Of a DNA stretch of 54,865 nucleotides, positions 1 through 51,540 are shown in pieces (position 1 is the first letter of the stretch; every line of letters begins with the position of its first letter). A model generated the notes under the pieces. That model was not told the origin of the DNA. It saw only the letters and a list, made by a program, of their open reading frames with translations, and did no database searches. Position numbers and translations under genes: made by a program. Source of the stretch: a virus. Taxonomy: Duplodnaviria; Caudoviricetes. The stretch is from the IMG/VR virus record IMGVR_UViG_3300046413_000898, positions 1-54,865 of that record. The stretch is one strand, 5' to 3'.

Positions 1-20
1 CGATCGGATCAGGGGTTGGG

Positions 21-413
21 TCAGGTGGGGGTGATGACGACGGTGACGCCGGGTTCCTGCCCGTCCGGCACGTATGCCTTCTGGGCGGTGAGCCGCACGA
101 CTCGGGAGTCCTCAGCGAGCACCCCACCCGCCTGCAGCGAGTCGAGCAGGGATCGGCTGAGTTTATCGAGGTCGGGCTTCACTGCGGGCACCAGCCACCT
201 GGGTCTCTTGGGGCGTGGCATCCAGAAGCACAGTTCGACGTGGACGGGCTGGTCGATCGGTGGGCCGTCGTGCTGCGCGGCGACTGAGGCGGTGACCGTG
301 GTTCGCCAGGCTTTGTGGCGCTTGTTCGCCTCGTAGAGCCGCCCGGTGCGGGTCACGGACTTCGAGCCCTGCGGCACCGGGGTACCAACCGTCAGCGACC
401 GATGCAGAGTCAT
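21..413 (-). CDS. rusA: RusA-family Holliday junction resolvase (copy A)
   Basis: PVPQGSK N-terminus, KPDLDKL and DS(L)...EDSRVV motifs; near-identical to 42208-42600; ATGA overlap with upstream gene. Confidence 0.85.
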   Translation of the reverse strand: MTLHRSLTVGTPVPQGSKSVTRTGRLYEANKRHKAWRTTVTASVAAQHDGPPIDQPVHVELCFWMPRPKRPRWLVPAVKPDLDKLSRSLLDSLQAGGVLAEDSRVVRLTAQKAYVPDGQEPGVTVVITPT

Positions 414-637
414 TCGACACGCTCCTGCCAATCTCGGTACCGCAGGGTCCAGGAGTTCTCCCTGCCCCTTCCTTCTGCAACGGCCAGGATTTCTCGGCGC
501 CCTACGGCAGTGATCTCGATCGTGGTGGGACCATAGCCCTCATCTCCGACGAGCCGAGTGCCTGGACCCCACCCGCGGCGACGGGCGTAGTCCGCGGAGC
601 TCTCACCGTGGCGCATGTGCGGGTTGGTCGTGCTCAC
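410..637 (-). CDS. hypothetical phage protein (75 aa)
   Basis: Overlaps both neighbours by 4 nt (translational coupling). Confidence 0.65.
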   Translation of the reverse strand: MSTTNPHMRHGESSADYARRRGWGPGTRLVGDEGYGPTTIEITAVGRREILAVAEGRGRENSWTLRYRDWQERVE

Positions 638-1269
638 TTGACGCGCTCCCTACGAGTCCACGGGCCACAGAGCGGGCGTCGCATGTCCGACAGCATGTAC
701 CCCGACCGCCACGAACCAACCTCGTCGTCCCACCACCACGGGTAGCCGTCATCAACTTCGATCCACTTCCATGCGCGCAGGTGGGTGTCGTTGTCGGGCC
801 ACTCGCCCACCTCGATGCGCTCCGGCACCACCGGGGTGTCGTCGGGCCAGCGGGGCGGGTCCGACACGATGATCTGACGGTCGCCAGCGCGGACCAGTAT
901 GAGGTCCCAAGGCCACCAGTTCTCGTCCGTGTCCAGGATCGGGCATCTCTTGTCTTGCGGATCAGCGACCACGCCCAGCCAGTCGTCCCCCTTGATGCGG
1001 ATGCACTGCCCGAGGATCGTCGGCTTGTCCGGCTGCACCACCGGGGGCGGAGTGATGACCTTGATCGGGCGGGAGACCCGAGCCGCCTTGTACCCACCCT
1101 CCGACGTGAACAGGCGCAGGGCGTCTGCATGGGCCTCTTCAATTCGGCCCAGTGTCATTCGGGTCCGCACCCCCTGCCCGTCGTCCACCTCGATCTCTGC
1201 GCCCAGGTGGGCGTCCGTCAGGTCGCCCACCGTCAGGGTGTCACCCGCGCTGATCTTCTTCGTGCTCAT
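634..1269 (-). CDS. hypothetical phage protein (paralog of 43532-44173)
   Basis: Starts MSTKKISAGD after an AGGAG RBS; clear homolog in the second copy. Confidence 0.8.
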   Translation of the reverse strand: MSTKKISAGDTLTVGDLTDAHLGAEIEVDDGQGVRTRMTLGRIEEAHADALRLFTSEGGYKAARVSRPIKVITPPPVVQPDKPTILGQCIRIKGDDWLGVVADPQDKRCPILDTDENWWPWDLILVRAGDRQIIVSDPPRWPDDTPVVPERIEVGEWPDNDTHLRAWKWIEVDDGYPWWWDDEVGSWRSGYMLSDMRRPLCGPWTRRERVK

Positions 1270-1293
1270 TGCTATGTCTCCTCGGTGTGGGGC

Positions 1294-1323
1294 GCGGCCC
1301 CCACACGTGAGCGTGGGGGCCGC
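1294..1323 (-). terminator. GC-rich hairpin, probable terminator
   Basis: GCGGCCCCCAC...GTGGGGGCCGC 11-bp inverted repeat in the intergenic gap. Confidence 0.5.
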
Positions 1324-1342
1324 TGGTGTTGATGGGGTGGGG

Positions 1343-2356
1343 TCACTCGCCCACAGGGGCGGTGTCCCAGTCGAGCGTCTCCGGGCCATCGCCGTCCTGC
1401 TGGGCGTCAGCCTCGAGCTCGGCGATGAACGCCTCGATCTCGTCGCTGCTCAGCCCGGCGATGCTCTCGACCTTGCGGGTGATGCCCTGTTCGGACACCC
1501 ACGCCTGCACCGCGGTGGACTTCGCTCCCCGGTCCTCGAAGCCCTGAGCCACCAGCGCCGCGTCGAGGCGCTGCCACTGGCCCCGTTTGGACTTCACGAA
1601 GTCGTCGCTGGTCTCCGTGTCGTCGGCGTCCGTGTCGGGGGCGTCAGCCGGCTCGGGCTCCGGGGCGTCGGACACGTCCGGGGTCTCCGGTTCGGGCTGC
1701 TTCTTCGCTCGCGCCGGGGTCTTGCGCTTCACCGTGCGCGGCTTCGACTCCACCGCCGCAGGGGCCGGGGCGCTGGTGTCGCCGTCGAGGTTGATCTCCT
1801 CGACAGACGTGGCCGCCATGCCGGATAGCACGTCGGCGAACATCGTGCGGCACGCCTCGGTCTGCGCCTTCGCGGTGAGCATCGCGGTGGGGTCCTGCGA
1901 GTACAGCTTGTTGCTGGTGTACCCAGCCTTCTGTGCGCGCTGGATGGTCCAGGTGAACTCGGTCCAGTTCGCGGACCCCCGGCGGCGGGCGCGCACGGTG
2001 ACGGCCTGTTCCGTCGCGGCGGTGCGCTCGATCTCGTGTCCGTGGGACAGGACCAGTGCCACCATCGTGCGTGCGTAAAGGGCGGGCTTGCCCTGCACGA
2101 TGAAGATGTTGGACAGGGCGTTCATCGGCGCCAGGCCGATCTCGCGGCCGGTGAGGATCGCCGCGGCGGTGGCTTCGACGTTGCCGCGCAGCCCGCGGGG
2201 GACGAACTCGGTGCCGCAGAGGACAGCGGCGATGCGCCCGGCGGCGTCGAGCTCCGCGGCCCAATCGGCCAGGGCCATCACGGTCTCGGATGCGGCCTGG
2301 GGCTGGGTGGCTACGGCTTTGCCGTCTCGGTCGAAGGGGGACAGTTCGTTGCTCAT
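1343..2356 (-). CDS. RecT-like ssDNA annealing protein (copy A)
   Basis: AAILTGREIGLAPMNAL..I.IVQGKPALY core typical of actinophage RecT-like proteins; near an exonuclease; homolog at 47329-47997. Confidence 0.75.
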   Translation of the reverse strand: MSNELSPFDRDGKAVATQPQAASETVMALADWAAELDAAGRIAAVLCGTEFVPRGLRGNVEATAAAILTGREIGLAPMNALSNIFIVQGKPALYARTMVALVLSHGHEIERTAATEQAVTVRARRRGSANWTEFTWTIQRAQKAGYTSNKLYSQDPTAMLTAKAQTEACRTMFADVLSGMAATSVEEINLDGDTSAPAPAAVESKPRTVKRKTPARAKKQPEPETPDVSDAPEPEPADAPDTDADDTETSDDFVKSKRGQWQRLDAALVAQGFEDRGAKSTAVQAWVSEQGITRKVESIAGLSSDEIEAFIAELEADAQQDGDGPETLDWDTAPVGE

Positions 2357-2370
2357 GGTGTTCTCCTGGG

Positions 2371-2682
2371 TCACTTGATGCTGATCTTGGGGGCGGCCAC
2401 CTTGGTGTAGGCGTCGCGGGTGAGGTCGTCAATCTCGTCGGTGAGCAGCGAGTAGCGGGTCTCGGGCTCGTAGAGATCGGGGGCCTCGGTGGGCGGGTAG
2501 TCGCGCTCGAATCCGGCCTTGTCGAACCGGCGGTTGGGGATGACGGTGAGGGTGTGCTCGCCGGCTTCGTGCTTGCCCAGCGGCAGGGAGCGCAGCACCT
2601 CCTCGATCTCGGCCATGCGGGCCTTGTGCTGCAGGTACTCGGCCACCAGGTCGGCGGTCGTGGTCTCGGGGGTGGTGGTCAT
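2371..2682 (-). CDS. hypothetical phage protein
   Basis: RBS (AAGGAG) before MTTTPETT; coupled to neighbours. Confidence 0.65.
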   Translation of the reverse strand: MTTTPETTTADLVAEYLQHKARMAEIEEVLRSLPLGKHEAGEHTLTVIPNRRFDKAGFERDYPPTEAPDLYEPETRYSLLTDEIDDLTRDAYTKVAAPKISIK

Positions 2683-2897
2683 GGTGTGGTCTCCTTGGTG
2701 CGTTCCTGGATGTTCTTCTTCATGGTGGTGAGGGCGTCGATCAGACGCCCCACGTCGTCGGCGTCGAGGAATACCTCGGTGTATGTCGTCGGGATTCTCT
2801 TGTGTCGTTCGGTGATGTCGATTGCAACCCACTGGTCCTCGTAGTACAGGTCCAGGTACCCACGTCCGGCGCGGCACTCAACATGGAAGGCGCTCAT
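2679..2897 (-). CDS. hypothetical phage protein
   Basis: Starts MSAFHVEC after an AAGGAG RBS; ATGA overlaps. Confidence 0.6.
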   Translation of the reverse strand: MSAFHVECRAGRGYLDLYYEDQWVAIDITERHKRIPTTYTEVFLDADDVGRLIDALTTMKKNIQERTKETTP

Positions 2898-3718
2898 GCT
2901 GTGGTCTCCTTCTCGGTAGTGGTGGGTGGGTCTAGTGGGGGCCGCAGGAACGCTTCCCGGCGGCCGGCGTTCTTGGTCGTGAACGCCGCTACGAGGAACT
3001 GCCGGTACGCCTCCGCGATCTCTTCGCGGCTGGTGCACAGCGGGTGCAGGTCGGTGCCCTGCGGGGTGATGTGCGCGACGTAGGTGGCGGCGATGTCGGG
3101 CATGGGTCGCTCGTCGTCGCCGTCCACCCAGAACTCGGCGCGCGCGTAGGCCGCGGTCTGCAGCGCGGTCTCCCCGTACACGTGGTTGCTTGTCTTGAGG
3201 TCGATCAGCACCGGCTCCCCGTCGTTCAGGTAGGGGCTGGTCGCTACGAGGTCGAGGGTCCCAGCCCACCAGTCGCCCCGGTGGGCGACCATCACCTCGG
3301 TCAGCACCGGGGACACTTCCCACGTGTCGAGGAACTCGAGGTATCCCTCGACCTCAGCGGCGTGGGCGTCGGGCACCTCGACCTCGTTGCCGGCGATGAT
3401 CTGTTCGGCGAGTGCGTGGATCTCGGTGCCCCGGTCAGCGGCGGCGTCTCGCACTTCCCCTGGGACCTTGCAGAGCCGGTCCACTAGGGCAGTGCGGGTG
3501 CGGCCCCTCGACCTCACATCGGGCAGCCCGCGCAGCCGCTCGACCTCCTGCGGGTTAGCGTCCACCCACTCGGCGACCATGCGCCCATGCCAGGGCGCGA
3601 TCGCGGGTTTCGGGATGCCGCCGCCGATCAGGGTGGTGACGCCCTGCACCTTGGCTTGGACGCCCTGTGGGGTGTCGAGGGTGTACCGGTGTCGTCCTGG
3701 CTCGAAGGTCAGCCCCAT
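2894..3718 (-). CDS. PD-(D/E)XK exonuclease (RecE/Cas4-like) (copy A)
   Basis: AADRGTEIH, AGTLDL, IDLKTS and LQTAAY motifs; homolog at 47994-48770. Confidence 0.8.
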   Translation of the reverse strand: MGLTFEPGRHRYTLDTPQGVQAKVQGVTTLIGGGIPKPAIAPWHGRMVAEWVDANPQEVERLRGLPDVRSRGRTRTALVDRLCKVPGEVRDAAADRGTEIHALAEQIIAGNEVEVPDAHAAEVEGYLEFLDTWEVSPVLTEVMVAHRGDWWAGTLDLVATSPYLNDGEPVLIDLKTSNHVYGETALQTAAYARAEFWVDGDDERPMPDIAATYVAHITPQGTDLHPLCTSREEIAEAYRQFLVAAFTTKNAGRREAFLRPPLDPPTTTEKETTA

Positions 3719-4128
3719 CAGACTGCCCTCGAGAAGATGCCGTCACGGATGCGGCGGGGCCGGGCCGCGGCGACCGCTCCGCGCCAGTCTCCCAGCGCCC
3801 GGCCGATGGACTCGGCCATGTCGTCCCGCTCCACCTGGGTGGCGAACTGGTCGCCCGTGGGCCAGTCGCTGATCAGGTCACCGAGAGCGGTGAGCCCGAT
3901 GACTCGGGCGCCGAAGGCGATGGTGAGCGCGGCCTGGATGACCTCGGGGGCGTCGGTGTCGCGGTGCTCCCTGATGTACCAGGCGACGGCCTCGACGGCC
4001 TCGTCGTCGGTGCGGATCAGGTCGGGGGCGATGTGCGCCCCGTCGTGTGCCGCCCCCAGGGGTTCCACCTCGTCGGCGGGCTCCGGGGGCTCGTGGTACA
4101 TGCGCTCGATGGTAGCGAGGCTGGTCAT
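3718..4128 (-). CDS. hypothetical phage protein
   Basis: ORF with RBS, within the operon. Confidence 0.65.
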   Translation of the reverse strand: MTSLATIERMYHEPPEPADEVEPLGAAHDGAHIAPDLIRTDDEAVEAVAWYIREHRDTDAPEVIQAALTIAFGARVIGLTALGDLISDWPTGDQFATQVERDDMAESIGRALGDWRGAVAAARPRRIRDGIFSRAV

Positions 4129-4147
4129 GGTGCTGTCTCCTGTCTGC

Positions 4148-4501
4148 TCATGCGGTGGTGCTGTTGTCGATCCAGGCGTCGATCGGTGCGGCGATGCTCC
4201 GCCAGCGGCGAGATCGCCGGTCGGCCTCCTTATCGTAGAGCCCGCGGTAGGTGCCGATGTAGCCGCCCTTCCGTGAAGCCTTCGAGGACTTCACCGTCCG
4301 GTCTGTTTTCTCGATCCATCCGCGGTTCACAGCCCGAATCAACGCGCCTTGCCATGCCGACCCGGCGGGCGGCGGGCCGCACACTTCTTCGAGGTCCTCG
4401 ACGGTGAACTCCGCGAACTTGTCTGCCGTCTCCTGGATCGCGTTCTCCGCCGCGGCGTGCCATTCCTCGGCCGTCTGGTCGAGTGCCATGGGCTTGCTCA
4501 T
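4148..4501 (-). CDS. hypothetical protein, possible winged-helix (paralog of 49398-49685)
   Basis: Starts MSKPMAL; strongly conserved with the copy at 49.4 kb. Confidence 0.7.
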   Translation of the reverse strand: MSKPMALDQTAEEWHAAAENAIQETADKFAEFTVEDLEEVCGPPPAGSAWQGALIRAVNRGWIEKTDRTVKSSKASRKGGYIGTYRGLYDKEADRRSRRWRSIAAPIDAWIDNSTTA

Positions 4502-4608
4502 GGCTTCTCCTTCTCCCAGCTCCGCCGGCCGCCATGCAGCACTGCCCACGCCGTCCAAGCGAACGCGGCCCATGCGGCGACCGCGAGCAACACGATCCCC
4601 GCCGTCAC
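4498..4608 (-). CDS. small membrane peptide
   Basis: GTG start overlaps the upstream stop; hydrophobic helix; a similar peptide sits at 49682-49849. Confidence 0.55.
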   Translation of the reverse strand: MTAGIVLLAVAAWAAFAWTAWAVLHGGRRSWEKEKP

Positions 4609-4715
4609 TGGTCTCCCTCCTGTCGCCATGGGCGGGCGATCAGCAGCACGACTGCGATGACCGCCAGCGTCAGCAGGAAGTCGGGGTGAAGTCCCCACTC
4701 GATCCACTCGGGCAT
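4605..4715 (-). CDS. 36-aa single-TM peptide (MPEWIEWGLHPDFLLTLAVIAVVLLIARPWRQEGDQ)
   Basis: Strong AAGGAGGAG RBS; conserved homolog at 50913-51020. Confidence 0.75.
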   Translation of the reverse strand: MPEWIEWGLHPDFLLTLAVIAVVLLIARPWRQEGDQ

Positions 4716-4738
4716 GTCTCCTCCTTGGGTGCGGGTGA

Positions 4739-4764
4739 GGCCCGGCACCAGTCGGTGTCGGGCC
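4739..4764 (-). terminator. hairpin between candidate ncRNA and first early gene (copy A)
   Basis: GGCCCGGCACC/GGTGTCGGGCC stem; same position as the U-tailed terminator at 51039-51072. Confidence 0.5.
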
Positions 4765-4787
4765 GTCGTTGTGTCTGGTGTTCGTCC

Positions 4788-5065
4788 CACCTGGTCAGGC
4801 GAGCACGATCCGCTTGGCGCTCCGGGATCTACCGGGGCGACTTCCCTCACACCGTGCGGTTGCCTGCCGCAGCCTTATCGGGCTGTACCCACCCGCCATG
4901 CGGGTGCTCTGCGACGTGTAGGGGCTGGCCGGTCACCGGCCCCCGTAACGCTGTGGTGTGGGGTATATGCCTTCACCCTCCGCATCGCCTCGTGAGGCTC
5001 ACATGCGGTGGGCGCCCGGTGAATCTCCGGGTGTGTCGTGCGGATCGTGCTAGTCCGACCAGGTG
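4788..5065 (-). ncRNA. candidate ~280-nt structured non-coding RNA (copy A)
   Basis: Long terminal stem plus internal hairpins; compensatory changes relative to 51095-51371; no conserved ORF. Confidence 0.7.
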
Positions 5066-5072
5066 CGGCGTC

Positions 5073-5240
5073 TTAGGCCTTGGGCAGCCAGGGCGCCAGG
5101 TTGCTCTCGGGGATGACCCAGCGTGCGCCCCGCCCGGTCTTTACCGCGTCGGGGAAGGACTTGTCGTGGATCATCCGCATGATGGTGGTGCGGGAGACTC
5201 GCAGGAGCTCGGCTGCCTCGTGTGTCGTGTAGTTCTTCAT
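5073..5240 (-). CDS. excisionase/AlpA-like HTH DNA-binding protein (55 aa, missing from the ORF track)
   Basis: Manual translation MKNYTTHEAAELLRVSRTTIMRMIHDKSFPDAVKTGRGARWVIPESNLAPWLPKA; GGAGG RBS; homolog at 51379-51540. Confidence 0.85.
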   Translation of the reverse strand: MKNYTTHEAAELLRVSRTTIMRMIHDKSFPDAVKTGRGARWVIPESNLAPWLPKA

Positions 5241-5268
5241 CGTCACCTCCTTGGTGCGTCGTAGTCAC

Positions 5269-5297
5269 AGCATGGCACACGGTGGAGCGCCAGGCAA
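5269..5297 (-). promoter_or_regulatory. putative early promoter TTGCCT-N17-CATGCT
   Basis: Spacing and -10 conserved in copy B (TTGCAC-N17-CATGCT, 51569-51597). Confidence 0.55.
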
Positions 5298-5334
5298 CAC
5301 CCCGACCCCCTTAGTGCCGTAATGATGCGTCATG

Positions 5335-5363
5335 TTGCGCAGTGACGCGCGGTGACGTACTGT
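5335..5363 (+). promoter_or_regulatory. putative divergent promoter TTGCGC-N17-TACTGT, overlapped by 10-bp phased repeats
   Basis: Positional equivalent in copy B is TTGACA-N16-TACGGT. Confidence 0.5.
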
Positions 5364-5399
5364 GACGCCATGAACAACCGCACCACCAAGGAGCACGAC

Positions 5400-5690
5400 A
5401 TGCAGACCTTCACCAAGGCCCTCAAGACCATCGACGCCGGCACCACCTCCATTGGCATCGATGCCTGGACCCAAGAGGACGGCAAGCTGCGCGGCACCAT
5501 CTGGCGCCGCGCAGATGAGGAGACCGCCGCAGGCAAGTGGGACAGCGTGCTCGCGGCCTTCATCGCCGACGAGGGCGAGGATCACGACGACATGATCGGC
5601 CGTCTCCGCCAGGCCGACTGGCTCCCCGAGGAGTGGGTCCACTACGACCTCGGCGGCGACGAGGGCGACACCATCGCAGCGACTCGCTGA
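5400..5690 (+). CDS. hypothetical acidic protein
   Basis: AAGGAG RBS before MQTFTK; high-GC codon usage. Confidence 0.7.
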   Translation: MQTFTKALKTIDAGTTSIGIDAWTQEDGKLRGTIWRRADEETAAGKWDSVLAAFIADEGEDHDDMIGRLRQADWLPEEWVHYDLGGDEGDTIAATR

Positions 5691-5708
5691 CGCCGAGGGT
5701 GAACCAGG

Positions 5709-6251
5709 ATGGGCTTCGCTGAAATGCCACTAGCCATGTCCGTCCCCGGTCTCACCCCTGTGGAGCGGCTCGTGCTCACATCCGTGGCTGAGCACTCGCG
5801 CCGATCGGAGGGGTGGACGATGTTCTGGGGGCAGAAGCGCCTGGCCGCACGCCTCAATGTGTCCGACCGGGCGGTGCGCAACGCATATGTGCGCCTTGAG
5901 GACATGGGGCTGGTCACCCGCACCAAGCGCACCCGGGGCGATGGCGAGAACCGCCGGCGCACCACGGACCTTGTGCGCTTCAACGTGGAAGCCGTCCGCC
6001 GGGCAGCAGATGCGGAACTGAGTTCCTCCACTAGCGGAAGTGAGTTCCGCAGGTCAGCGGAACTGAGTTCCGCGCTTAACAGGGAAGGAGAACAGGGAAG
6101 TGAACATGCATCTGCGGAACTGAGTTCCGCTAGTCGCCAGGACCCCCCGCCAGCAGACGATGATGATGGATGGAACAACGACGACTGGCACATCACAGAC
6201 GGACCAGCACCGATAGACCACAGCGCCGGTCACTACGACTGGACCGCCTGA
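5709..6251 (+). CDS. winged-HTH replication-initiator-like protein with internal iterons
   Basis: ERLVL..A...GQKRLAARLNVSDRAVRNAYVRLEDMGLV resembles phage Rep N-termini; four 17-bp palindromes inside the gene. Confidence 0.65.
   Translation: MGFAEMPLAMSVPGLTPVERLVLTSVAEHSRRSEGWTMFWGQKRLAARLNVSDRAVRNAYVRLEDMGLVTRTKRTRGDGENRRRTTDLVRFNVEAVRRAADAELSSSTSGSEFRRSAELSSALNREGEQGSEHASAELSSASRQDPPPADDDDGWNNDDWHITDGPAPIDHSAGHYDWTA
6012..6130. repeat. four 17-bp palindromic repeats GCGGAACTGAGTTCCGC (iteron-like)
   Basis: Copies at 6012-6028, 6034-6050, 6057-6073 and 6114-6130. Confidence 0.9.
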
Positions 6252-6290
6252 CCCACGAACCACCACCACCCGCACGATAGGATCCCCACC

Positions 6291-6584
6291 ATGAGCACCA
6301 CCCGCATCATCAAGACACAGTCCGAGCAGCGCACCTACACCGGCAACCGCTCACGCGGCCTCCTCGGCTTCACCATCGGCCTGCCTCTGGTCCTGGCATG
6401 CTTCGTCGCCGCGATCGCCACCTGGGGCAACAACGAGGACCTGGGACGGCTGTTCTTCGTCGCCGGGCTGATTGCGTTCGCCTGGTTCGTGGTGTCGATC
6501 CTCCGACTGCTGTTGTTCGTGCTCTCAGGTGACCGGGACGTGACGGTCACCAGCCCCACCGAGTACACGGTGGTGGAGGACTGA
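6291..6584 (+). CDS. two-TM membrane protein
   Basis: Two hydrophobic helices; ends before the hairpin. Confidence 0.7.
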   Translation: MSTTRIIKTQSEQRTYTGNRSRGLLGFTIGLPLVLACFVAAIATWGNNEDLGRLFFVAGLIAFAWFVVSILRLLLFVLSGDRDVTVTSPTEYTVVED

Positions 6585-6604
6585 CCACACCCGGGCATGA
6601 CGAA

Positions 6605-6646
6605 ATGGCCCCCGGCCACCTCCACAGGGGAGGGGCCGGGGGCCAT
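6605..6646. terminator. bidirectional terminator hairpin between convergent genes
   Basis: ATGGCCCCCGGCC...GGCCGGGGGCCAT; homologous hairpin at 51953-51997. Confidence 0.75.
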
Positions 6647-6662
6647 GTTCATCGGCGACGGA

Positions 6663-7112
6663 TCAGGTGCCCACCTGCCGCGCCAGTCGCGCCACCGGAT
6701 CGGTGTCGTCGTCGTGGTCGTCGTCCACGGTCTGCTCGAGCTCGACCGGGGAGTCAGTGACGGCCTGGTCCTCGGTGAGGACGAGGCCGTCGGTAGGGAT
6801 CTGGTCGGGGTCCACGAGGTTCGAGGCGTACTCCCCGGTCTCGTCCGGCGAGTCCACCTGCGGCGGCAGGGGATCACGGGCCGGGTCGCGCTTGGCGTAG
6901 CCGGCCAGGACTGCGCCGGTGGCGCCGATGGCGACGAACACTGGCGCTGACCAGACGCCGAGACTCTGCACGGCTTCCTGGGGGATCGCCAGCAGGAAGG
7001 CGGCCGCGATACCAGCCAGGGCGGTCAGTGCACCGCCGGTGACGATGCCCGCGGTGACCTTGGGGCTGATGCGGGTGGGATCGGTGGATGCGCTGGCTGC
7101 GTGGCGGCTCAT
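6663..7112 (-). CDS. holin-like membrane protein (copy A)
   Basis: Two TM segments (ISPKVTAG... motif), acidic tail, directly after the endolysin. Confidence 0.65.
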   Translation of the reverse strand: MSRHAASASTDPTRISPKVTAGIVTGGALTALAGIAAAFLLAIPQEAVQSLGVWSAPVFVAIGATGAVLAGYAKRDPARDPLPPQVDSPDETGEYASNLVDPDQIPTDGLVLTEDQAVTDSPVELEQTVDDDHDDDTDPVARLARQVGT

Positions 7113-8176
7113 GCCTGCACCTCCTTGATCTGATCGGCCGGCACCTGGCGGGTGATGCGGGCGTCGGAGACGACGGTGACCGTGTCGGCCTGCGCTGCGT
7201 TGATCGCGGCGGACACGATCTGCTCGAGACGCTCCTTGTCCAGGCCAGCGGCGATGGTGCGCAGCGTCACCGATGACTTCTCGCGCATCCGCTGTTCGAG
7301 GATGCGGTGGGACTCGTTGAGGGTGCGCTCGTGGCGCTGCCACCCCAGGAACTCGCTGATGGTCTGCTCACCCTTGGCGGAACCCTGGGCGGGAATCTTG
7401 GCGCTGAGAAGCGCCTGCACGATGCGCTTCTCGGTGCGTTCGTTCTCCTCTCGGATGACGGCGCGGAACTCTTCCTTGGAGGCCATGTCAGACCACTCCT
7501 TCGTCTCGGTCGGGGCCGCCGGGGTTACCGGCTTGGCGGTGGCGGATGCCCGGGCGGGCGCGCCAGTGGGATTAGAGTAAGACCACGAGTGCTTGCCGGT
7601 GGCTGTCACCCACGCCTGGGCGGAGCGCAGTCCCTCGATCTTGCCCGGCAGCAGGGAGGCGTCGATCTTCCCCATCGAGGACCACTCGTAGTGGGCCAGC
7701 TGCAGGAAAGTGTCCGGGGCGGCAGGCTTATACATCCGCGCCAGTGCGGAGGCCAGGTAGGGCCACACGCGGATCTGGTCCGCGGTCCAGTCAGCCGGGG
7801 CGACCCCGGAGGACTCGGCCTCGATACCGATCAGCCAGCCGTTGCCCCCGTTGAGCGGCACCCCGCCGATCGGGCCGCCGACGCCGGCGTGATTCGCCCA
7901 CCCGGCGGCGACCACGTAGACCTCGCCGCCGCGCCCGAAGGCGAGGTTGCACAGCGGGCCGGGAAGGTCGGAACGTCCGCCGATCAGCATGTTCAGCGTC
8001 GGCGAGCCGGTGGTGTAGCGACGGGCGCTGGTCGTGGCCGTGTGATGGTGCAGCACGCCCTTCGGGGTGCCGTAGAACCCGCGCCCGGCCCATCCGCGGG
8101 TCTTCCACCCGTTGGTCTCGATCACGGTCAGGCCGTGCTTGCGCAGCCCGTCCGCCAGGTCAGTGAGCATCACCAT
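7109..8176 (-). CDS. endolysin, N-acetylmuramoyl-L-alanine amidase (Amidase_2)
   Basis: HHTA, GRSDLPGPLCN, ANHAG, IGIEAE, AHYEW and KID motifs. Confidence 0.9.
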   Translation of the reverse strand: MVMLTDLADGLRKHGLTVIETNGWKTRGWAGRGFYGTPKGVLHHHTATTSARRYTTGSPTLNMLIGGRSDLPGPLCNLAFGRGGEVYVVAAGWANHAGVGGPIGGVPLNGGNGWLIGIEAESSGVAPADWTADQIRVWPYLASALARMYKPAAPDTFLQLAHYEWSSMGKIDASLLPGKIEGLRSAQAWVTATGKHSWSYSNPTGAPARASATAKPVTPAAPTETKEWSDMASKEEFRAVIREENERTEKRIVQALLSAKIPAQGSAKGEQTISEFLGWQRHERTLNESHRILEQRMREKSSVTLRTIAAGLDKERLEQIVSAAINAAQADTVTVVSDARITRQVPADQIKEVQA

Positions 8177-8189
8177 GTGATGACTCCTC

Positions 8190-8612
8190 TCATGAAGAAT
8201 CCCCCGTGTCAGGCGGGGGCTTGGTGTGTAGTGGGCGTGAGCGCATGTTCTGCAGGTGCTGCAGGATCCGCCACGACAACGACGGAACCGGTGGACGCGC
8301 GCCGTCCTGCACCCACTTCACCACCGGGACCATGTCATCGATCAGTTCGTCCCGGTCGCGCAGGGCTCCCTCTAGGGCCACGAGGCGGCGGGTGTGCTCC
8401 GAGGACTCTGCCCGCAGGCTCTTGAGCTCTTGCTCCTGGCGGGTGAGTGCGCTTTCGAGGGTTTTCTGCCACTCGGACTGCACCGTGGTGGAGCGGTCCA
8501 CGCGCCGCGCCCACCACACCAGAAAGGCCGTGATCAAGGCGCCACCGGTGGTTATGAGCGCGGCCAGCACAGTAGGTTCCAGCGGCATCATGGCGGGACT
8601 AATCACGGCCAC
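8190..8612 (-). CDS. membrane-anchored coiled-coil lysis-cassette protein (copy A)
   Basis: N-terminal TM plus coiled coil; near-identical to 54022-54459. Confidence 0.75.
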   Translation of the reverse strand: MAVISPAMMPLEPTVLAALITTGGALITAFLVWWARRVDRSTTVQSEWQKTLESALTRQEQELKSLRAESSEHTRRLVALEGALRDRDELIDDMVPVVKWVQDGARPPVPSLSWRILQHLQNMRSRPLHTKPPPDTGDSS

Positions 8613-9159
8613 CCCCTGCCCTTACCCTCGGGGCATAGTCAAACGCGCCAGCGTGCGCCGCCAGCGCCAAAAGGGTCATCACCGCCCGAGTCCAGTAGTT
8701 CGCCGTGGACCCCCACCCCGAGCTCACATGCGGCGGACCACCAGCACCACCGCCACTACCGGCAGGGAACCCCATCAACCCAGAGGACTCCCACAGCAAC
8801 CACGGGCCCAGGAACAGTGCGCCGATCAGCAGTGGGATGATCACCAGCACCGAGCCAATCAGGATCAGCTGCTGCCTGGCCGCCTCACCACGCACCACAG
8901 ACAGCACCACACCCAACGCCGCCAGAACAGCGGCGACCATCCAGACACCGGCGATCACATGCGGAGTCATCCACCCCGCCACCCACGACACACCATCAAC
9001 CCGCGCCGGCGACGGACGGGACCACCACGAAGCCGCCATCAGCGCATGGGAGATCGCAAGAACAGCGAGGACCACACGGAAGAACGCCGACCTGGACACG
9101 GGAACGGGTACGCCCCGGCCGCCTAGGGGTGGCTCAGGGTCTGGTCTGTGGGTGTTCAT
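8599..9159 (-). CDS. multi-TM membrane protein (possible holin)
   Basis: About four TM helices; homolog at 54446->54865. Confidence 0.7.
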   Translation of the reverse strand: MNTHRPDPEPPLGGRGVPVPVSRSAFFRVVLAVLAISHALMAASWWSRPSPARVDGVSWVAGWMTPHVIAGVWMVAAVLAALGVVLSVVRGEAARQQLILIGSVLVIIPLLIGALFLGPWLLWESSGLMGFPAGSGGGAGGPPHVSSGWGSTANYWTRAVMTLLALAAHAGAFDYAPRVRAGGGRD

Positions 9160-40895: not shown

Positions 40896-41108
40896 TCAGT
40901 CGCCCGTCGGCGATGTTGGCTGCTGGTGCCACTCGAAGCTGTCGTTGATCCAGGCGTCGATGTCGGCCTTGCGCCAGTACCATCGGCCGCCGATCTTGGC
41001 CTTCGGGGGCGCGGTGCCGCGCCAGATGCGTTGCCGGAGAGCGGCGGGCGTGATGCCGAGGTACTCGGCGGCCTGGTCGGTGTCCCAGAAATCGGGGGGG
41101 AGCTTCAT
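40896..41108 (-). CDS. AlpA/excisionase-like HTH protein
   Basis: DTDQAAEYLGIT..ALR....G.AP...KIGGRWYWRKADIDAWI. Confidence 0.85.
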   Translation of the reverse strand: MKLPPDFWDTDQAAEYLGITPAALRQRIWRGTAPPKAKIGGRWYWRKADIDAWINDSFEWHQQPTSPTGD

Positions 41109-42158: not shown

Positions 42159-42207
42159 TTGGTTCTCCTTGGTTGTGTTCTGCGAGCCGCTCGGATCAGG
42201 GGTTGGG

Positions 42208-42600
42208 TCAGGTGGGGGTGATGACGACGGTGACGCCGGGTTCCTGCCCGTCCGGCACGTATGCCTTCTGGGCGGTGAGCCGCACGACTCGGGAGTCCTC
42301 AGCGAGAACCCCGCCGGTCTGCAGTGAGTCCAGGATGGACCGGGTGAGCTTGTCGAGGTCGGGCTTGACGGCGGGCACCGGCCACCTGGGTCGCTTGGGG
42401 CGCGGCATCCAGAAGACGAGCTCGACGTGCACGGGCTGGTCGATTGGTGGGCCGTCGTGCTGCGCGGCGACCGAGGCGGTGACAGTGGCCCGCCACGCCT
42501 TGTGGCGCTTGTTCGCCTCGTAGAGCCGCCCGGTGCGGGTGACGGACTTCGAGCCCTGCGGCACCGGGGTGCCAACCGTCAGCGAGCGATGCAGGGTCAC
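42208..42600 (-). CDS. rusA: RusA-family resolvase (copy B)
   Basis: Same motifs as 21-413. Confidence 0.85.
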
Positions 42601-43536
42601 TCGCCCACCTCTTCATTCATATTGGTGTCCTCTACGAAGCCTTGCCCGATTAGCCGCTTTCTCGCCAGCTCCATATATTCCGGGTTCAACTCAATTCCAG
42701 CGAATCGTCTACCTAACAGCCCCGCCGACAGTGCCGTTGTTCCCGACCCCATAAAGGGATCGAGAACAATATCGCCCGGTTGGCTTGCGGTTAATATGCA
42801 CGGATCTACAAGAGTCGGCGGAAATGTTGCAAAATGACCGGACGCTTCACGGTACGCCCGCGTTTTCACATCCCACACAGTGCGCAGTCGCCTGTCGTTC
42901 GGTCCTTTTACTGCACCGACATCGTATAGGTACCTCTCCGACTTCGAGAGTAAGAACACATACTCGTGACTCCTCGTTGGTCGATCTCGAACACTTTCAG
43001 GCTGACAATTGGGCTTGTTCCAGACAATATCGGACCGCAGGTACCATCCGCGCTCCTGCAGTGCGAAGGCTAGGCGCCAGGGAACACCTATCAAATCTTT
43101 TGGCTTCAAACCTTCGGGAGTATTCGGGCGTTGACTCATGGCGCGAGCTGCATTCTTCTTGTCAGGCGCGCGCCAGGTTCGCCCTCCACTGGTGTAGGAG
43201 TCGCCTATATTTAACCAAAGCGTTCCATCATCCCTCAGCACCTGATATACGAGATCAAACACGTCTGCAAGCGCTTCGATGAAGGAGTAGACGCTGCTTT
43301 CGAGACCGATCTGCCCGTCAATCTTGTAATCCCGAAGCGACCAGTAAGGTGGAGACGTGACCACGGTTTGCGCCGAAGCCTTAGGCATCTCCGCAAGCAC
43401 TTCGTGAGCGTCTCCGAGAATTAGCGCTGACCGATTCATCACGGTCAGGTAGTCCGCCTCCGGCGGATGCTCGAAGGTGCCGAACCTCGGATAAGCGATG
43501 GAGGTGCCCACCGTCAGCGATCGATGCAGGGTCACT
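42568..43536. repeat. 34-bp direct repeats flanking the methyltransferase
   Basis: 42568-42601 vs 43503-43536, 32/34 identical. Confidence 0.85.
42597..43535 (-). CDS. DNA N4-C/N6-A methyltransferase, beta class (lower-GC insert)
   Basis: VTSPPY, HFATFP and VLDPFMGSGTT motifs; start at 43535 (GTG) or 43439. Confidence 0.9.
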   Translation of the reverse strand: MTLHRSLTVGTSIAYPRFGTFEHPPEADYLTVMNRSALILGDAHEVLAEMPKASAQTVVTSPPYWSLRDYKIDGQIGLESSVYSFIEALADVFDLVYQVLRDDGTLWLNIGDSYTSGGRTWRAPDKKNAARAMSQRPNTPEGLKPKDLIGVPWRLAFALQERGWYLRSDIVWNKPNCQPESVRDRPTRSHEYVFLLSKSERYLYDVGAVKGPNDRRLRTVWDVKTRAYREASGHFATFPPTLVDPCILTASQPGDIVLDPFMGSGTTALSAGLLGRRFAGIELNPEYMELARKRLIGQGFVEDTNMNEEVGE

Positions 43537-46565: not shown

Positions 46566-46575
46566 GTCAGTCCTC

Positions 46576-49849: not shown

Positions 49850-49881
49850 ATCTGAGCCGTACACCTGTTGTCTCCTTTGTC

Positions 49882-50916
49882 TCAGCTGGCGTGATGCCAG
49901 GTCATGTCTGAACGTCGAACGAACGTGAGCAGCGCCTTCACGTGGGCGAACTGCAACGCGGCCGCGTAGGCCATCTCCGGGACCAGTGCGGCGGCCACCA
50001 GGCGGTGACGCCACCCCATACCCCAGACCGTCACGACCCGCTCCACGATGAACACCGCCAAGATCGCCAGCCCCCACCAGGACGGCTGCAGGCCGTAGAT
50101 CGGGGTGAGTACCGCGGTGAGGACCAGGAACGACCAGAACGCGAGGATGGACACCAGCAGCAGCGCCTGCTGCCGCCAGTACACCGCCGTCACACGATTG
50201 AGGCCGTGCCGGGTCACAACGTCCAGCGCCCCACGCGACCAACGAGCTCGCTGCTTGATCAGGTCCGGGATCGTGTCCATCGTGTCCGTCAGCACCCCAC
50301 ACCCAGCCGGCGAGGTCAGGCGCGCGCCGGTCGCCTTGAGGCGCACCGTGAGGTCGAAGTCCTCCGTGATCGCATCCTCGTCGTAGTACGAGCCGTAGCG
50401 GGCACGCACAGCCTCGAGGGCCGACATGCGGATCAGCGCCGCCGTGCCCGACAGAACATGCGTGTGGTCGCTCATCGTGTTCTGAACGGTGTAGCGCTCC
50501 CACTCCCTCGCAGTGCACCCACGCAACCAGCCCGTGTCGTCGTCCGCGAGGAACACCGCGCCAGCCGCATCCGCACGGCCACGCGGCCCAGGCCCCAGTG
50601 CATCGAGTGCGTTCTGCACCCACACCGGGGACATCACCGTGTCAGCGTCCATCGGCAGCACCATGTCCCACGGGGACGGGTCAGCGTAGGCGATCGCCCG
50701 ATTGAGAGCTCCTGCCTTGCGTCCGGTGATCTTCCCGAAGTCCACGACCTCGATCCGCGGGTCACGCACTCGCGCCGCCGACGCCACAGTGATGTCGTCC
50801 TGCGCGTTGTTCACCGCAACAATCAGCCTGTCAGGGGACCGCGTCTGGTCCAGCAGGGACCGCAGCGTCCGGTCGATGTCCGGCTCCGTCACGGCCGGCA
50901 CGATAGCGATGATCAC
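49882..50916 (-). CDS. GT2 processive glycosyltransferase (IcaA/PgaC/HAS-like)
   Basis: KAGALN, DADT, TED and QRARW motifs plus C-terminal TM helices. Confidence 0.85.
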   Translation of the reverse strand: MIIAIVPAVTEPDIDRTLRSLLDQTRSPDRLIVAVNNAQDDITVASAARVRDPRIEVVDFGKITGRKAGALNRAIAYADPSPWDMVLPMDADTVMSPVWVQNALDALGPGPRGRADAAGAVFLADDDTGWLRGCTAREWERYTVQNTMSDHTHVLSGTAALIRMSALEAVRARYGSYYDEDAITEDFDLTVRLKATGARLTSPAGCGVLTDTMDTIPDLIKQRARWSRGALDVVTRHGLNRVTAVYWRQQALLLVSILAFWSFLVLTAVLTPIYGLQPSWWGLAILAVFIVERVVTVWGMGWRHRLVAAALVPEMAYAAALQFAHVKALLTFVRRSDMTWHHAS

Positions 50917-51020
50917 GACTCGTCACCCCTCCAGAACAGGGCCACCAGTCCGATGACCGCGATGATCCCGATGGTCAGCAGGAAGTCGGGGTGCATCCCC
51001 CACTCGAGCCACTCAGGCAT
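50913..51020 (-). CDS. 35-aa single-TM peptide (MPEWLEWGMHPDFLLTIGIIAVIGLVALFWRGDES)
   Basis: Homolog of 4605-4715; strong RBS. Confidence 0.75.
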   Translation of the reverse strand: MPEWLEWGMHPDFLLTIGIIAVIGLVALFWRGDES

Positions 51021-51038: not shown

Positions 51039-51072
51039 AAAAAAGCCCCGGCTCCTCGAAGGGCGCCGGGAC
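51039..51072 (-). terminator. intrinsic terminator directly 3' of the candidate ncRNA
   Basis: GUCCCGGCGCCC-UUCG-AGGAGCCGGGGC-UUUUUU on the minus strand. Confidence 0.75.
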
Positions 51073-51094: not shown

Positions 51095-51371
51095 CACCTG
51101 ACCAGTTCAAGCAGCACCGATTCGCGCCCAGGAACCTGCCTGGGCGGCTTCCCTCACGCTTCACGGTTGCCTGCCGCAGCCTTATCGGACTGTGTCCACC
51201 CGCCATACGGGTGCTCTGCGACGTGTGGGCACCGACCGGTCACCGGCCCCGTAACGCTCTGCGTGGGTTATATTTCTTCATCCGCCGTGTCGCCTCGTAA
51301 GGCTCACACACAGTGGATGTCCGGTGAAACTCCGGATCGTGTTGCTCGGTGCTGCTTGAACCAGCCAGGTG
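51095..51371 (-). ncRNA. candidate ~280-nt structured non-coding RNA (copy B)
   Basis: 16-bp perfect closing helix 51105-51120/51346-51361; covariation with 4788-5065. Confidence 0.7.
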
Positions 51372-51378: not shown

Positions 51379-51540
51379 TCAGCTGAGCCAGGGTGCAAGG
51401 TCGCTCTCGGGGATGACCCAGCGTGCGCCTCGTCCGGTCTTTCGCGCCCCGGGGAGGGACTTGTCGTGGATCATCCGCATGATCGTGGTCCGGGAGACTC
51501 GCAGGAGCTCTGCTGCCTCGTTGCTGGTGTAGTGCTTCAT
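51379..51540 (-). CDS. excisionase/AlpA-like HTH protein (53 aa, missing from the ORF track)
   Basis: MKHYTSNEAAELLRVSRTTIMRMIHDKSLPGARKTGRGARWVIPESDLAPWLS. Confidence 0.85.
   Translation of the reverse strand: MKHYTSNEAAELLRVSRTTIMRMIHDKSLPGARKTGRGARWVIPESDLAPWLS

What the first reader, a model, noticed from the sequence alone, without database searches (positions are those of the whole stretch)
4788..5065. Candidate novel ~280-nt structured RNA with compensatory base changes between the two phage copies
Seen: 4788-5065 and 51095-51371 are homologous, near-equal in length (278/277 nt) and have no conserved ORF. Both are bounded by CACCTG...CAGGTG. The inner closing helix differs in sequence yet pairs perfectly in each copy (A: AGCACGATCCGC 4802-4813 / GCGGATCGTGCT 5040-5051; B: GTTCAAGCAGCACCGA 51105-51120 / TCGGTGCTGCTTGAAC 51346-51361). 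Internal helices also covary: CGCTCCGG/CCGGGGCG vs CGCCCAGG/CCTGGGCG; CCGCAT/ATGCGG vs CCGTGT/ACACAG; CCCGG/CCGGG vs TCCGG/CCGGA; CACAC/GTGTG vs CACGC/GCGTG. The core has invariant blocks (25 nt at 4857-4881 = 51164-51188, and CGGGTGCTCTGCGACGTGT). Most single-sided changes are A-C on the plus strand, i.e. G-U on the minus strand, which favours a sense RNA in the early transcript; a few point the other way. I do not recognise it as a known family. Only two sequences support the covariation.
Basis: partly seen in the sequence, partly recalled or inferred. Interest (0 to 1): 0.9.

Follow-up and report, generated by a model that had tools for sequence, protein, structure and literature searches.

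The report
Conserved folded RNA in phage operon
Two diverged copies of an actinophage early region carry the same roughly 280-base non-coding stretch whose mutations keep a many-helix fold intact, so it is probably a new structured RNA, known so far from one narrow phage lineage and of unproven function.

Summary
4788-5065 and 51095-51371 are orthologous non-coding spacers in two diverged copies of one early region. Both are closed by the two longest inverted repeats of the window. A shared 86-pair fold keeps every pair in both copies: 17 pairs changed on both sides, 8 on one side, 0 broken. Structure conservation of the core alone beats column shuffles (SCI 0.88 vs 0.70, 0 of 100) and 8 control segments. 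G-U wobbles favour the minus strand, the sense of the flanking genes (12 vs 3 cells).

No Rfam family matches. No relative was found in any held DNA collection.

Caveats:
- Only two full sequences exist.
- 10 of the 17 compensated pairs lie in the closing helix.
- One unbiased test of the core is not significant.
- Core identity (81%) equals third-codon identity next door.
- Stability alone is only a mild outlier in this GC-rich genome.

The element lies between the first early gene (HTH_17) and a hairpin (a canonical terminator in copy B) that precedes the recombination genes. My best guess is a cis-acting RNA that lets transcription pass that terminator. An RNase III-processed stable RNA is the main rival.

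The parts
4788..5065 (-). Element, copy A (278 nt). Read on the minus strand: closing helix P1, then a multi-branch core with hairpins P2, P3 and P9 and a domain P4-P8.
   Evidence: Sequence. Consensus fold of 86 pairs. Helix coordinates. cmsearch with R1 gives 339 bits, which is by construction.
51095..51371 (-). Element, copy B (277 nt), with the same architecture.
   Evidence: The closing helix is about 29 continuous pairs on the minus strand.
5040..5065 (-). P1 5' arm of copy A (CACCUGGUCGGACUAGCACGAUCCGC in RNA sense).
   Evidence: Inverted repeat I1. Pairs in columns 11-36 / 264-289.
4788..4813 (-). P1 3' arm of copy A.
51346..51371 (-). P1 5' arm of copy B.
   Evidence: Inverted repeat I2, 26 nt, 88% Watson-Crick complementary. 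The rest are G-U pairs on the minus strand.
51095..51120 (-). P1 3' arm of copy B.
4866..4915 (-). Three-way junction P6/P7/P8 of copy A. Its unpaired stretches AGC, GAUAAGG and (just outside it, 4859-4865) AGGCAAC are identical in both copies.
   Evidence: helices and junction letters. P6 has 7 invariant pairs, and P7 and P8 each have a one-sided change kept as G-U.
4974..5014 (-). Hairpin P3/P3b of copy A. It has three pairs changed on both sides and two on one side between copies, and a YACG tetraloop.
4737..4767 (-). Hairpin about 20 nt downstream of element A and 21 nt before the start codon of the small ORF. No U run follows it.
   Evidence: Fold. Not listed as a minus-strand terminator.
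51039..51072 (-). Hairpin plus a run of six U downstream of element B, an intrinsic-terminator-like site. It ends about 10 nt before the ribosome-binding site of the small ORF.
   Evidence: Scan hit on the minus strand. Fold.
5073..5240 (-). Upstream gene of copy A: a 55-aa HTH_17 (MerR/excisionase-type) DNA-binding protein and first gene of the leftward early operon. Its stop codon is 7 nt before the element.
   Evidence: Pfam PF12728, E 3.9e-12. PHROG HTH/excisionase families. Translation.
51379..51540 (-). Upstream HTH_17 gene of copy B (53 aa).
   Evidence: Translation. PF12728 match at 51385-51531.
4605..4715 (-). Downstream 36-aa hydrophobic ORF of copy A, with a strong AAGGAGG ribosome-binding site.
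   Evidence: Translation. Sequence.
50913..51020 (-). Downstream 35-aa hydrophobic ORF of copy B. It overlaps the start of a family-2 glycosyltransferase gene by 4 nt.
   Evidence: Translation. Pfam on 49882-50916.

Best explanation
The element is a structured domain of the leftward (minus-strand) early transcript of an actinophage. It is transcribed from the divergent promoter region at about 5241-5351, through the small HTH_17 gene.

**Fold.** The RNA folds into a 26-29-bp closing helix (P1) around a core of about 225 nt with some eight further helices. One of these is a three-way junction whose unpaired nucleotides are identical in both copies.

**Proposed function.** I propose that it works in cis on the transcript that carries it. 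The folded RNA acts on the elongating polymerase, or recruits a factor to it. Transcription then runs through the hairpin or terminator 20-25 nt downstream and on into the small membrane ORF, the exonuclease/RecT genes and the rest of the early operon. This is how HK022 put, Bacillus EAR and Tn916 canT work.

**Shown:** the conserved fold, its position, the hairpin, and the absence of a coding frame.

**Inferred:**
- that it is RNA, about 0.6-0.65;
- that the minus strand is the active one, about 0.7 given RNA;
- that the function is antitermination, about 0.3 overall.
For: **The fold is conserved**
- All 172 cells of 86 pairs are standard pairs. 17 pairs changed on both sides and 8 on one side, with 0 of 500 shuffles reaching this. 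Structures slid by 1-3 columns give only 0-2 double changes.
- For the minus-strand core without P1, SCI is 0.88 against 0.70 +/- 0.04 in 100 column shuffles, none reaching it.
- Eight control windows from five other A/B homologous segments give SCI z of -1.4 to +1.6.
- Threading one copy on the other copy's own MFE fold gives z -3.7 to -5.9 for the whole element.

**The strand is minus**
- Consensus energy, SCI and wobble counts all favour minus.
- A third variant seen in Logan contigs turns two copy-A wobble or mismatch positions (4821, 4887) into Watson-Crick pairs. It also carries the paired change 4823 C>A / 4834 G>T, though all three states are shared with copy B.

**The position fits a cis-acting element**
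- The order is first early gene (HTH_17), then 7 nt, the element, about 20 nt, a hairpin (canonical with U6 in copy B), the ribosome-binding site, and the rest of the operon.
- The simple scan finds no promoter-like site between the hairpin and the ORFs. Downstream genes therefore need read-through.

**The element is a discrete module**
- An RNA-library contig of an isolate matches 4921-5065 with one difference and departs exactly at 5065.
- Related phages have the HTH gene and the small ORF abutting, without the element.

**There is precedent**
- canT of Tn916 is a 452-nt, cis-acting, orientation-specific RNA antiterminator lying between orf8 and xis. The same paper lists put, EAR and conAn2 (PMC11658703, passages read).
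- HK022 put RNA acts alone on RNA polymerase (PMC9378689, start of abstract in the search listing).
Against: - **Thin sample.** Only two full sequences exist, and they share ancestry.
- **Weight on P1.** 10 of 17 double changes are in P1. The core alone is not significant in one direction of the threading test (z -1.0).
- **Near-neutral core.** Core identity of 81% is no higher than the third-codon identity of the adjacent gene, 79%.
- **Strand is not unanimous.** Copy A alone is more stable on the plus strand. The variant 5052 A>T makes a G-U only on the plus strand.
- **Weak terminator in copy A.** Its hairpin has no U run. Terminator-like sites elsewhere in the early region are no more frequent than in shuffles. 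A need for processive antitermination is therefore not evident.
- **P1 is unusual for this role.** A 26-29-bp perfect helix is not a feature that I know of in put or EAR (recalled). It looks more like an RNase III site.
- **No expression data.** There are no RNA ends and no expression level. The RNA-library contig could be DNA carry-over.
- **No similarity to known antiterminators.** No sequence or structure likeness to any curated RNA was found.
Confidence: 0.32

Rival explanations
1. It is an RNase III processing stalk around a stable non-coding RNA. P1 is a dsRNA substrate. Cleavage separates the HTH_17 cistron from the downstream cistrons, as at the intercistronic RNase III sites of T7 early mRNA or the stalks that flank rRNAs (recalled). 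It also releases the core of about 225 nt, which then acts in trans, for instance by binding a host or phage protein.
For: - P1 is 26-29 bp. Its inner sequence is free to vary (40-47% identity between copies) as long as it pairs, as expected if only the helix shape matters.
- The core is a compact multi-helix fold with identical junction nucleotides.
- The boundary of homology in another genome lies exactly at the foot of P1.
- Large ornate RNAs of unknown function are known from phages and prophages (GOLLD, ROOL: PMC12286853 and PMC5737381, seen as search listings only).
Against: - No cleavage data exist.
- No partner protein is evident in the record: no reverse transcriptase and no TROVE/Ro protein.
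- The outer 6-7 bp of P1 are conserved in sequence, which a pure shape signal would not need.
- The core evolves at about the neutral rate.
Confidence: 0.27
2. It is a DNA-level element. The fold forms in single-stranded DNA of one strand or as a cruciform. It would serve replication priming, recombination or protein binding rather than as RNA.
For: - Compensatory changes and G-T against A-C asymmetry are equally expected for a single-stranded DNA fold.
- The element lies about 650 bp from a lambda-O-like initiator gene, in a region rich in recombination genes.
- Several loops are only 3 nt.
- Both strands fold about equally well.
Against: - A better origin candidate exists: three palindromic iteron-like repeats at 6030-6134 inside the O-like gene.
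- The element is kept in copy B, where I found no O-like gene on the plus strand beside it (not searched specifically).
- It lies in a transcribed, co-oriented spacer followed by a terminator-like hairpin.
- Many small internal helices with conserved unpaired junctions are more typical of RNA.
Confidence: 0.13
3. It is a selfish or relic insertion: a MITE-like inverted-repeat element, comparable to Neisseria Correia elements, that landed between two early genes. Its palindromic ends are kept complementary by template-switch correction rather than by selection for function.
For: - It has 26-nt terminal inverted repeats, a size of about 280 bp and sharply defined ends.
- Related phages lack it at the same junction.
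- The core changes at about the neutral rate.
- Correia elements have inverted repeats and a core, and are bound or cut by RNase III (PMC2649163, start of abstract in the search listing).
Against: - There is no target-site duplication at either copy.
- There is a single copy per genome unit.
- None of four conserved-block patterns matched any other record in viral contigs; one of them was also scanned, without a match, in GTDB genomes and in JGI metagenomes.
- The pattern is the reverse of a MITE: the arms vary and the core is the more conserved.
- Helices outside the arms also keep pairing (7 double changes and 6 one-sided changes, 0 broken).
Confidence: 0.13
4. It is a structured 5' leader of the small hydrophobic ORF, in the style of a type I toxin mRNA or a translational control element.
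For: The next ORF encodes a 35-36-aa hydrophobic peptide with a strong ribosome-binding site. Long, folded leaders are typical of type I toxin mRNAs (recalled).
Against: - The fold closes on itself and does not touch the ribosome-binding site or the ORF.
- In copy B the ORF is coupled to a glycosyltransferase gene, which suggests an ordinary membrane protein.
- No antisense RNA gene is evident.
Confidence: 0.05

Closest known systems
Tn916 canT (conjugation-associated RNA antiterminator)
   Same: Both are long (hundreds of nt), predicted to be structured, and lie in a non-coding stretch of a mobile element's operon next to a small xis/HTH gene. Each is downstream of the operon promoter and upstream of an intrinsic terminator that must be passed to express the downstream genes. 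canT acts in cis and only in one orientation (PMC11658703, passages).
   Different: I found no sequence or structure likeness, although canT itself was not compared because its sequence was not held. canT was defined genetically and ours only by comparison. canT is 341-452 nt, and I read of no long closing helix in it. The host is Firmicutes rather than Actinobacteria.
HK022 put RNA
   Same: Both are phage early-operon RNA elements. put suppresses pausing and termination on its own (PMC9378689, start of abstract). putR sits after the cro gene and before the first terminator (recalled), which is the same relative position as here.
   Different: put is about 70 nt with two stem-loops (recalled). 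This element is 278 nt with about nine helices and a 26-29-bp closing stem. They are not homologous.
RNase III sites of phage early transcripts and rRNA processing stalks
   Same: Both involve a long intercistronic double helix formed by sequences that flank a folded RNA, with the helix sequence free to vary.
   Different: T7-type sites are simple hairpins of about 50-60 nt (recalled). Here the helix encloses a conserved 225-nt core. Cleavage has not been tested.
Large ornate RNAs of phages and prophages (GOLLD, ROOL)
   Same: Both are complex multi-helix RNAs carried by phages, with no known function and no coding capacity (listings only).
   Different: Those are 500-800 nt (recalled), widespread, and in Rfam. 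This element is 278 nt, has no Rfam match and is confined to one lineage.
Correia repeat-enclosed elements and other bacterial MITEs
   Same: Both have terminal inverted repeats of about 26 nt and a total size in the MITE range. Both fold into a long hairpin when transcribed, and Correia elements interact with RNase III (PMC2649163, start of abstract).
   Different: This element is not repeated, has no target duplication, has variable arms and a more conserved core, and was not found in the bacterial genome collection (one 21-nt block scanned).

Membership tests
Any Rfam 15 family (4227 models) | Score at or above the family's gathering threshold. | tested here: not met
   There were 0 matches over the whole window. 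At E up to 10 on 501 nt around each copy, 2 and 4 weak matches appeared (best E 0.061, 21.6 bits against a gathering score of 39). Of these six, 3 lie partly or wholly outside the element, over the downstream hairpin and the small-ORF flank. The other 3 are short pieces inside it, all below threshold: GlsR26 at 4880-4952, sR41 at 51265-51285 and Dictyostelium_SRP at 51181-51255.
Processive RNA antiterminators (put / EAR / canT kind) | Lies downstream of the operon promoter and upstream of terminators, on the sense strand. | tested here: met
   The order is HTH_17 gene, element, hairpin or terminator, remaining early genes, all on the minus strand. The promoter itself was not located by the simple scan.
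Processive RNA antiterminators (put / EAR / canT kind) | Increases read-through of downstream terminators in cis, dependent on orientation. | not testable with these tools
   This needs reporter assays or RNA-seq of wild-type and deletion phage.
Processive RNA antiterminators (put / EAR / canT kind) | Homology to a described member. | tested here: inconclusive
   No Rfam match was found.
Intrinsic terminator downstream of the element | GC-rich hairpin followed by a U run. | tested here: inconclusive
   Met in copy B (hairpin 51045-51072 plus U6). In copy A the hairpin is present but there is no U run.
MITE / Correia-like element | Target-site duplication flanking the inverted repeats. | tested here: not met
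   The flanks are GTCC|...|CGGC in copy A and CTAC|...|ATTA in copy B, with no duplication.
MITE / Correia-like element | Many copies, with conserved terminal repeats. | tested here: not met
   There is one copy per genome unit. The inner arms are only 40-47% identical between copies. Four blocks or patterns were scanned in viral contigs. Three found nothing, and the fourth found 2 chance stretches that the model rejects. A fifth, 21-nt sub-block was scanned only in the metagenome and genome collections and found nothing there.
Retron msr-msd RNA | Adjacent reverse transcriptase gene. | tested here: not met
   There is no RVT_1 match in the record at E up to 0.1.
Bacterial Y RNA (YrlA-like) | Ro/Rsr (TROVE) partner encoded nearby, and a match to the RNA model. 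| tested here: not met
   There is no TROVE match and no Rfam match. That a YrlA model is in Rfam is recalled, not checked.
Riboswitch with terminator expression platform | A marginally stable closing helix that competes with the terminator or antiterminator. | tested here: not met
   P1 is 26-29 bp and does not overlap the downstream hairpin. No aptamer family matches.
Phage replication origin | Iterons or initiator-binding repeats. | tested here: not met
   No direct-repeat family of note lies inside the element. Iteron-like palindromes lie instead at 6030-6134 in the O-like gene.

The most novel reading that the evidence does not exclude
This is a previously undescribed class of ornate phage RNA in actinophages. 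It would be a self-folding module of about 280 nt with its own processing stalk, acting without a phage protein. It would either reprogram host RNA polymerase for read-through (an actinobacterial counterpart of put/canT with an unrelated, far larger fold), or act as a catalytic or decoy RNA released early in infection.
Probability: 0.25. Interest if true: 0.75.

Novelty: new variant of a known kind. Interest (0 to 1): 0.55.

Why it matters
RNA elements that act on transcription in phages and mobile elements are few. The paper I read names put, EAR, conAn2 and canT (PMC11658703). I know of none described from Actinobacteria or their phages, although no search here was aimed at that point.

If this 278-nt fold is functional, it would be a compact and experimentally tractable new RNA. 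It has two natural variants that already form a compensatory-mutation series. It also sits at a defined place in an early operon, where reporter assays could read its effect directly. If instead it is released as a stable RNA, it would join the small set of complex phage RNAs whose functions are an open question.

The practical limit is its rarity. It was found only in this record and in near-identical environmental contigs.

Tried and rejected
**Searches for relatives that found nothing**
- blastn (word 11) of copy A and of copy B with flanks against 50,697 phage records, and of copy A against 72,556 plasmids.
- megablast of window 1-9000 against phages.
- Exact or patterned blocks of the element in viral contigs. 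One search gave 2 stretches, both rejected by model R1.
- The same kind of block in JGI metagenome contigs and in GTDB genome contigs.
- Protein-anchored locus searches with the HTH_17 protein, RecT and the alignment of the downstream 95-aa family, in viral, genome and metagenome contigs.
- tblastn of the HTH_17 protein against phages.
- Model R1 on Glutamicibacter phage BIM BV-113 (whole genome) and on the early regions of Arthrobacter phages Kukla and Hirko: no match better than E 0.14.
- Protein relatives of the neighbours do exist in ENA/Logan assemblies: 18 for the 95-aa protein and 4 for HTH_17.

**Runs**
- Parts of the stretch without cover in the laid runs are not interpreted.

**Ideas rejected**
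- Coding gene: indels of 1 nt and no shared frame.
- Retron, Y RNA and attP: no reverse transcriptase, TROVE protein or integrase.
- Origin: see the membership test.
- Complementarity of the conserved GGCAGGCAAC motif to the divergent promoter region in copy A (inverted repeat I10): not kept in copy B, so taken as chance.
- A DnaA-box-like word in copy B: a single, imperfect box, recalled consensus, dropped.

**Limits**
- Supplements of PMC10690425, which hold 8,495 IMG/VR candidate RNAs, could not be opened. Its text says that these are 29-151 nt and needed at least 3 unique IMG/VR regions, so this 278-nt element is unlikely to be among them as a whole. A sub-motif cannot be excluded.
- The statement that the element is not in print rests on searches and on the Rfam scans. 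None of these searched by sequence in papers.
Full report
**What the window is.** The window is a whole IMG/VR virus record of 54,865 bp, classed as linear and estimated 80% complete. Its large terminase is at most 51% identical to those of Streptomyces and Gordonia phages. Its RecT is closest to those of Glutamicibacter and Arthrobacter phages. It is therefore an actinophage with no close cultured relative.

Positions 1-9018 are collinear with 42188-54865 at 65-92% identity. The record is about one genome length followed by a diverged second version of its first 9 kb. No tyrosine or serine integrase and no reverse transcriptase were found. "Two phage copies" is thus better read as two related genomes joined in one contig than as two prophages.

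**The observation.**
- The two elements, 4788-5065 and 51095-51371, occupy the same spacer.
- On the minus strand a 53-55-aa HTH_17 protein gene lies upstream (Pfam E 3.9e-12). Its stop codon is 7 nt before the element in copy A.
- After the element come about 20 nt, a hairpin, a strong ribosome-binding site and a 35-36-aa hydrophobic ORF.
- Next come a conserved 95-117-aa protein of unknown function, a PD-(D/E)XK exonuclease and RecT.
- On the other side of the HTH_17 gene is a divergent intergenic region and, in copy A, plus-strand genes that include a lambda-O-like initiator.

There is no conserved reading frame. Three 1-nt indels lie inside the element, and the long plus-strand frames over it differ in register and extent between the copies.

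**Is the fold real?** RNAalifold gives a common structure of 86 pairs on the minus strand (-135.9 kcal/mol) and 81 on the plus strand (-121.95).

Counting pairs on the minus-strand structure:
- All 172 cells are standard pairs.
- 17 pairs changed on both sides and 8 on one side.
- None of 500 shuffles reaches any measure.
- Structures slid by 1-3 columns give 0-2 double changes and 33-40% paired cells.

Because the structure was derived from these same two sequences, I added tests that do not share that bias.
- **Threading.** I folded one copy alone, threaded the other on that fold, and compared with the same substitutions placed at random. The whole element gives z -3.7 to -5.9, with 15-16 compensated pairs against 2.8-3.1 expected. 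The core without P1 gives z -3.4 and -3.1 from copy B to A, but only -1.0 and -0.9 from A to B.
- **Structure conservation index.** Against column shuffles that keep the pattern of conserved and changed columns, the minus core scores 0.88 against 0.70 +/- 0.04 (0 of 100 reach it). The plus core scores 0.78 against 0.69 (3 of 100).
- **Controls.** The same test on eight 227-column windows from five other homologous A/B segments, mostly coding, gave SCI z of -1.4 to +1.6.

The core is therefore an outlier too, though less strikingly than the closing helix.

**Results against a strong reading.**
- Thermodynamic stability alone is not extreme for this genome. Among 275 windows of 296 nt the two copies rank 1 and 3, but at z -2.4 and -1.7 after GC correction. 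One of 24 random coding windows had a shuffle-z of -4.48, against -4.6 and -5.4 for the element.
- Core identity between the copies (179 of 220, 81%) equals identity at third codon positions of the neighbouring HTH gene (41 of 52, 79%). The invariant blocks therefore do not show purifying selection on sequence.
- Ten of the 17 double changes lie in P1. Its inner part is only 40-47% identical between copies, below the neutral level. That points to segment replacement, mirrored indels or templated correction of a palindrome as much as to stepwise compensation.

**Strand.**
- The minus strand is favoured by consensus energy, by SCI, and by 12 G-U cells within helices against 3 interior A.C cells.
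- Copy B alone is more stable on the minus strand (-146.8 against -135.8). Copy A alone is more stable on the plus strand (-169.9 against -153.1).
- Contig variants from other samples mostly agree with minus. 4887 A>G and 4821 T>C turn copy-A wobble or mismatch positions into Watson-Crick pairs, and 4823 C>A with 4834 G>T is a paired change. All three are states also seen in copy B, so they are not independent. 5052 A>T favours plus.
- The minus strand is the coding strand of both flanking genes.

**Anatomy (RNA sense).**
- **P1** is 26-29 bp. It has a conserved outer CACCUGG...CCAGGUG and a variable inner part.
- **Multi-branch loop.** This carries hairpin P2, the long hairpin P3/P3b (YACG loop; three double changes), domain P4 and hairpin P9.
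- **Domain P4.** P4 leads to P5 and to a three-way junction P6/P7/P8.
- **Unpaired stretches identical in both copies.** These are AGC, GAUAAGG and AGGCAAC around P6.

**Known families.**
- Rfam 15 gives no match at gathering scores. At E up to 10 it gives 6 weak matches (2 around copy A, 4 around copy B). Three lie partly or wholly outside the element and three are short pieces inside it, all below threshold.
- The record has no tRNA or tmRNA.
- It has no reverse transcriptase, so the element is not a retron, and no Ro-type protein, so it is not a Y RNA.
- The element is not a typical MITE. It has no target duplication, one copy per genome unit, variable arms and a more conserved core, and nothing like it turned up in the one block scan of the GTDB genome collection.
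- It is unlikely to be the origin. Three palindromic iteron-like repeats lie at 6030-6134 inside the O-like gene.

**Distribution.**
- No relative was found by DNA similarity, by eight collection scans with six distinct patterns, or by five protein-anchored locus searches in the held collections.
- Related cultured phages have the HTH gene and a small ORF abutting, with no spacer. Model R1 finds nothing in three of them.
- Public runs do hold near-identical sequence: seawater, dairy, wastewater and food metagenomes and some isolates.
- When four runs were laid, a dairy-metagenome contig of 3,438 nt spanned 4669-5700 with 45 differences. Wastewater contigs covered the element with copy-A-like, copy-B-like and a third variant.
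- A small RNA library of an isolate (coded organism B) held a 163-nt contig matching 4921-5065 with one difference. It departs from the window exactly after CAGGTG at 5065.
- That contig shows the element is a discrete module that occurs with a different upstream neighbour. As evidence of transcription it is weak, because DNA can be present in such libraries.

**How it most likely works.** The layout is promoter-proximal small HTH gene, folded RNA, hairpin, and then the bulk of the early genes. In copy B the hairpin is a canonical intrinsic terminator with six U, ending about 10 nt before the next ribosome-binding site. No promoter-like site was found between the hairpin and the ORFs.

This is the layout of RNA-mediated antitermination. 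HK022 put RNA suppresses pausing and termination by itself (PMC9378689, start of abstract). Tn916 canT is a 452-nt, cis-acting, orientation-specific RNA between orf8 and xis that carries polymerase through terminator T1 and others. The same paper lists EAR and conAn2 as further cases (PMC11658703, passages read).

I therefore put cis-acting control of read-through first, at about 0.3. The long, sequence-free but strictly paired P1 is not explained by that idea. It fits an RNase III stalk that releases or stabilises the core, at about 0.27, and the two readings are not exclusive. The remaining rivals are DNA-level function (0.13), a selfish palindromic insertion (0.13) and a leader of the small ORF (0.05).

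**Novelty and verdict.** The finding is real and belongs to no curated RNA family. As a kind of thing, a structured non-coding RNA in a phage early operon, it has precedents. As a fold it is new.

The evidence is good for two sequences but remains two sequences from one narrow lineage, and function is inferred from position only. A large IMG/VR survey of candidate RNAs reports motifs of 29-151 nt that needed three or more unique regions (PMC10690425, passages). Its supplements were closed, so overlap with a sub-motif cannot be excluded.

I score interest at 0.55. The element is worth a targeted follow-up, first by fetching more contigs and then by end mapping and a read-through reporter. It does not yet justify the 0.9 given at first reading.

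Noticed in passing
window 1-9018 versus 42188-54865: The record repeats its first 9 kb at its end in a diverged form (65-92% identity, collinear, with insertions in the second version). It therefore looks like one genome length of about 42-46 kb joined to a variant genome. This could be a chimeric or concatemer-like assembly of two co-occurring strains, which may be why CheckV calls it 80% complete and linear.
   Followed up: partly
window 6030-6134 (inside ORF 5709-6251, +): There are three copies of a near-perfect palindrome (core GCGGAACTGAGTTCCGC) inside the lambda-O-like replication initiator gene. This is a likely origin of replication with iterons, as in lambda. It is present only in the copy A arm.
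   Followed up: no
window 49882-51020 (-): In copy B the 35-aa hydrophobic ORF overlaps by 4 nt the start of a 344-aa family-2 glycosyltransferase that copy A lacks. This may be a cell-envelope modification cassette inserted into the early operon.
   Followed up: no
window 7109-8176 (-) versus 52494-54185 (-): The two arms carry different lysins at the corresponding place: an Amidase_2 protein of 355 aa in arm A and a GH25 plus Peptidase_M23 protein of 563 aa in arm B. This is a module swap between otherwise collinear genomes.
   Followed up: no
window 5241-5351 and 51541-51631: The divergent intergenic region between the HTH_17 gene and the plus-strand genes is rich in short GTGAC/GTCAC and TGACGC words and inverted repeats, which look like operators. 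The sigma-70 consensus scan found no promoter there.
   Followed up: no
window 40944-41084 (-): A third HTH_17 gene (ORF 40896-41108, 70 aa) lies elsewhere in the early region. Model R1 finds no copy of the element next to it.
   Followed up: partly
window 4148-4501 (-) and 49398-49778 (-): A small, well-conserved protein family of unknown function (45 invariant columns in 18 sequences, no Pfam or PHROG match) lies just downstream of the element.
   Followed up: partly
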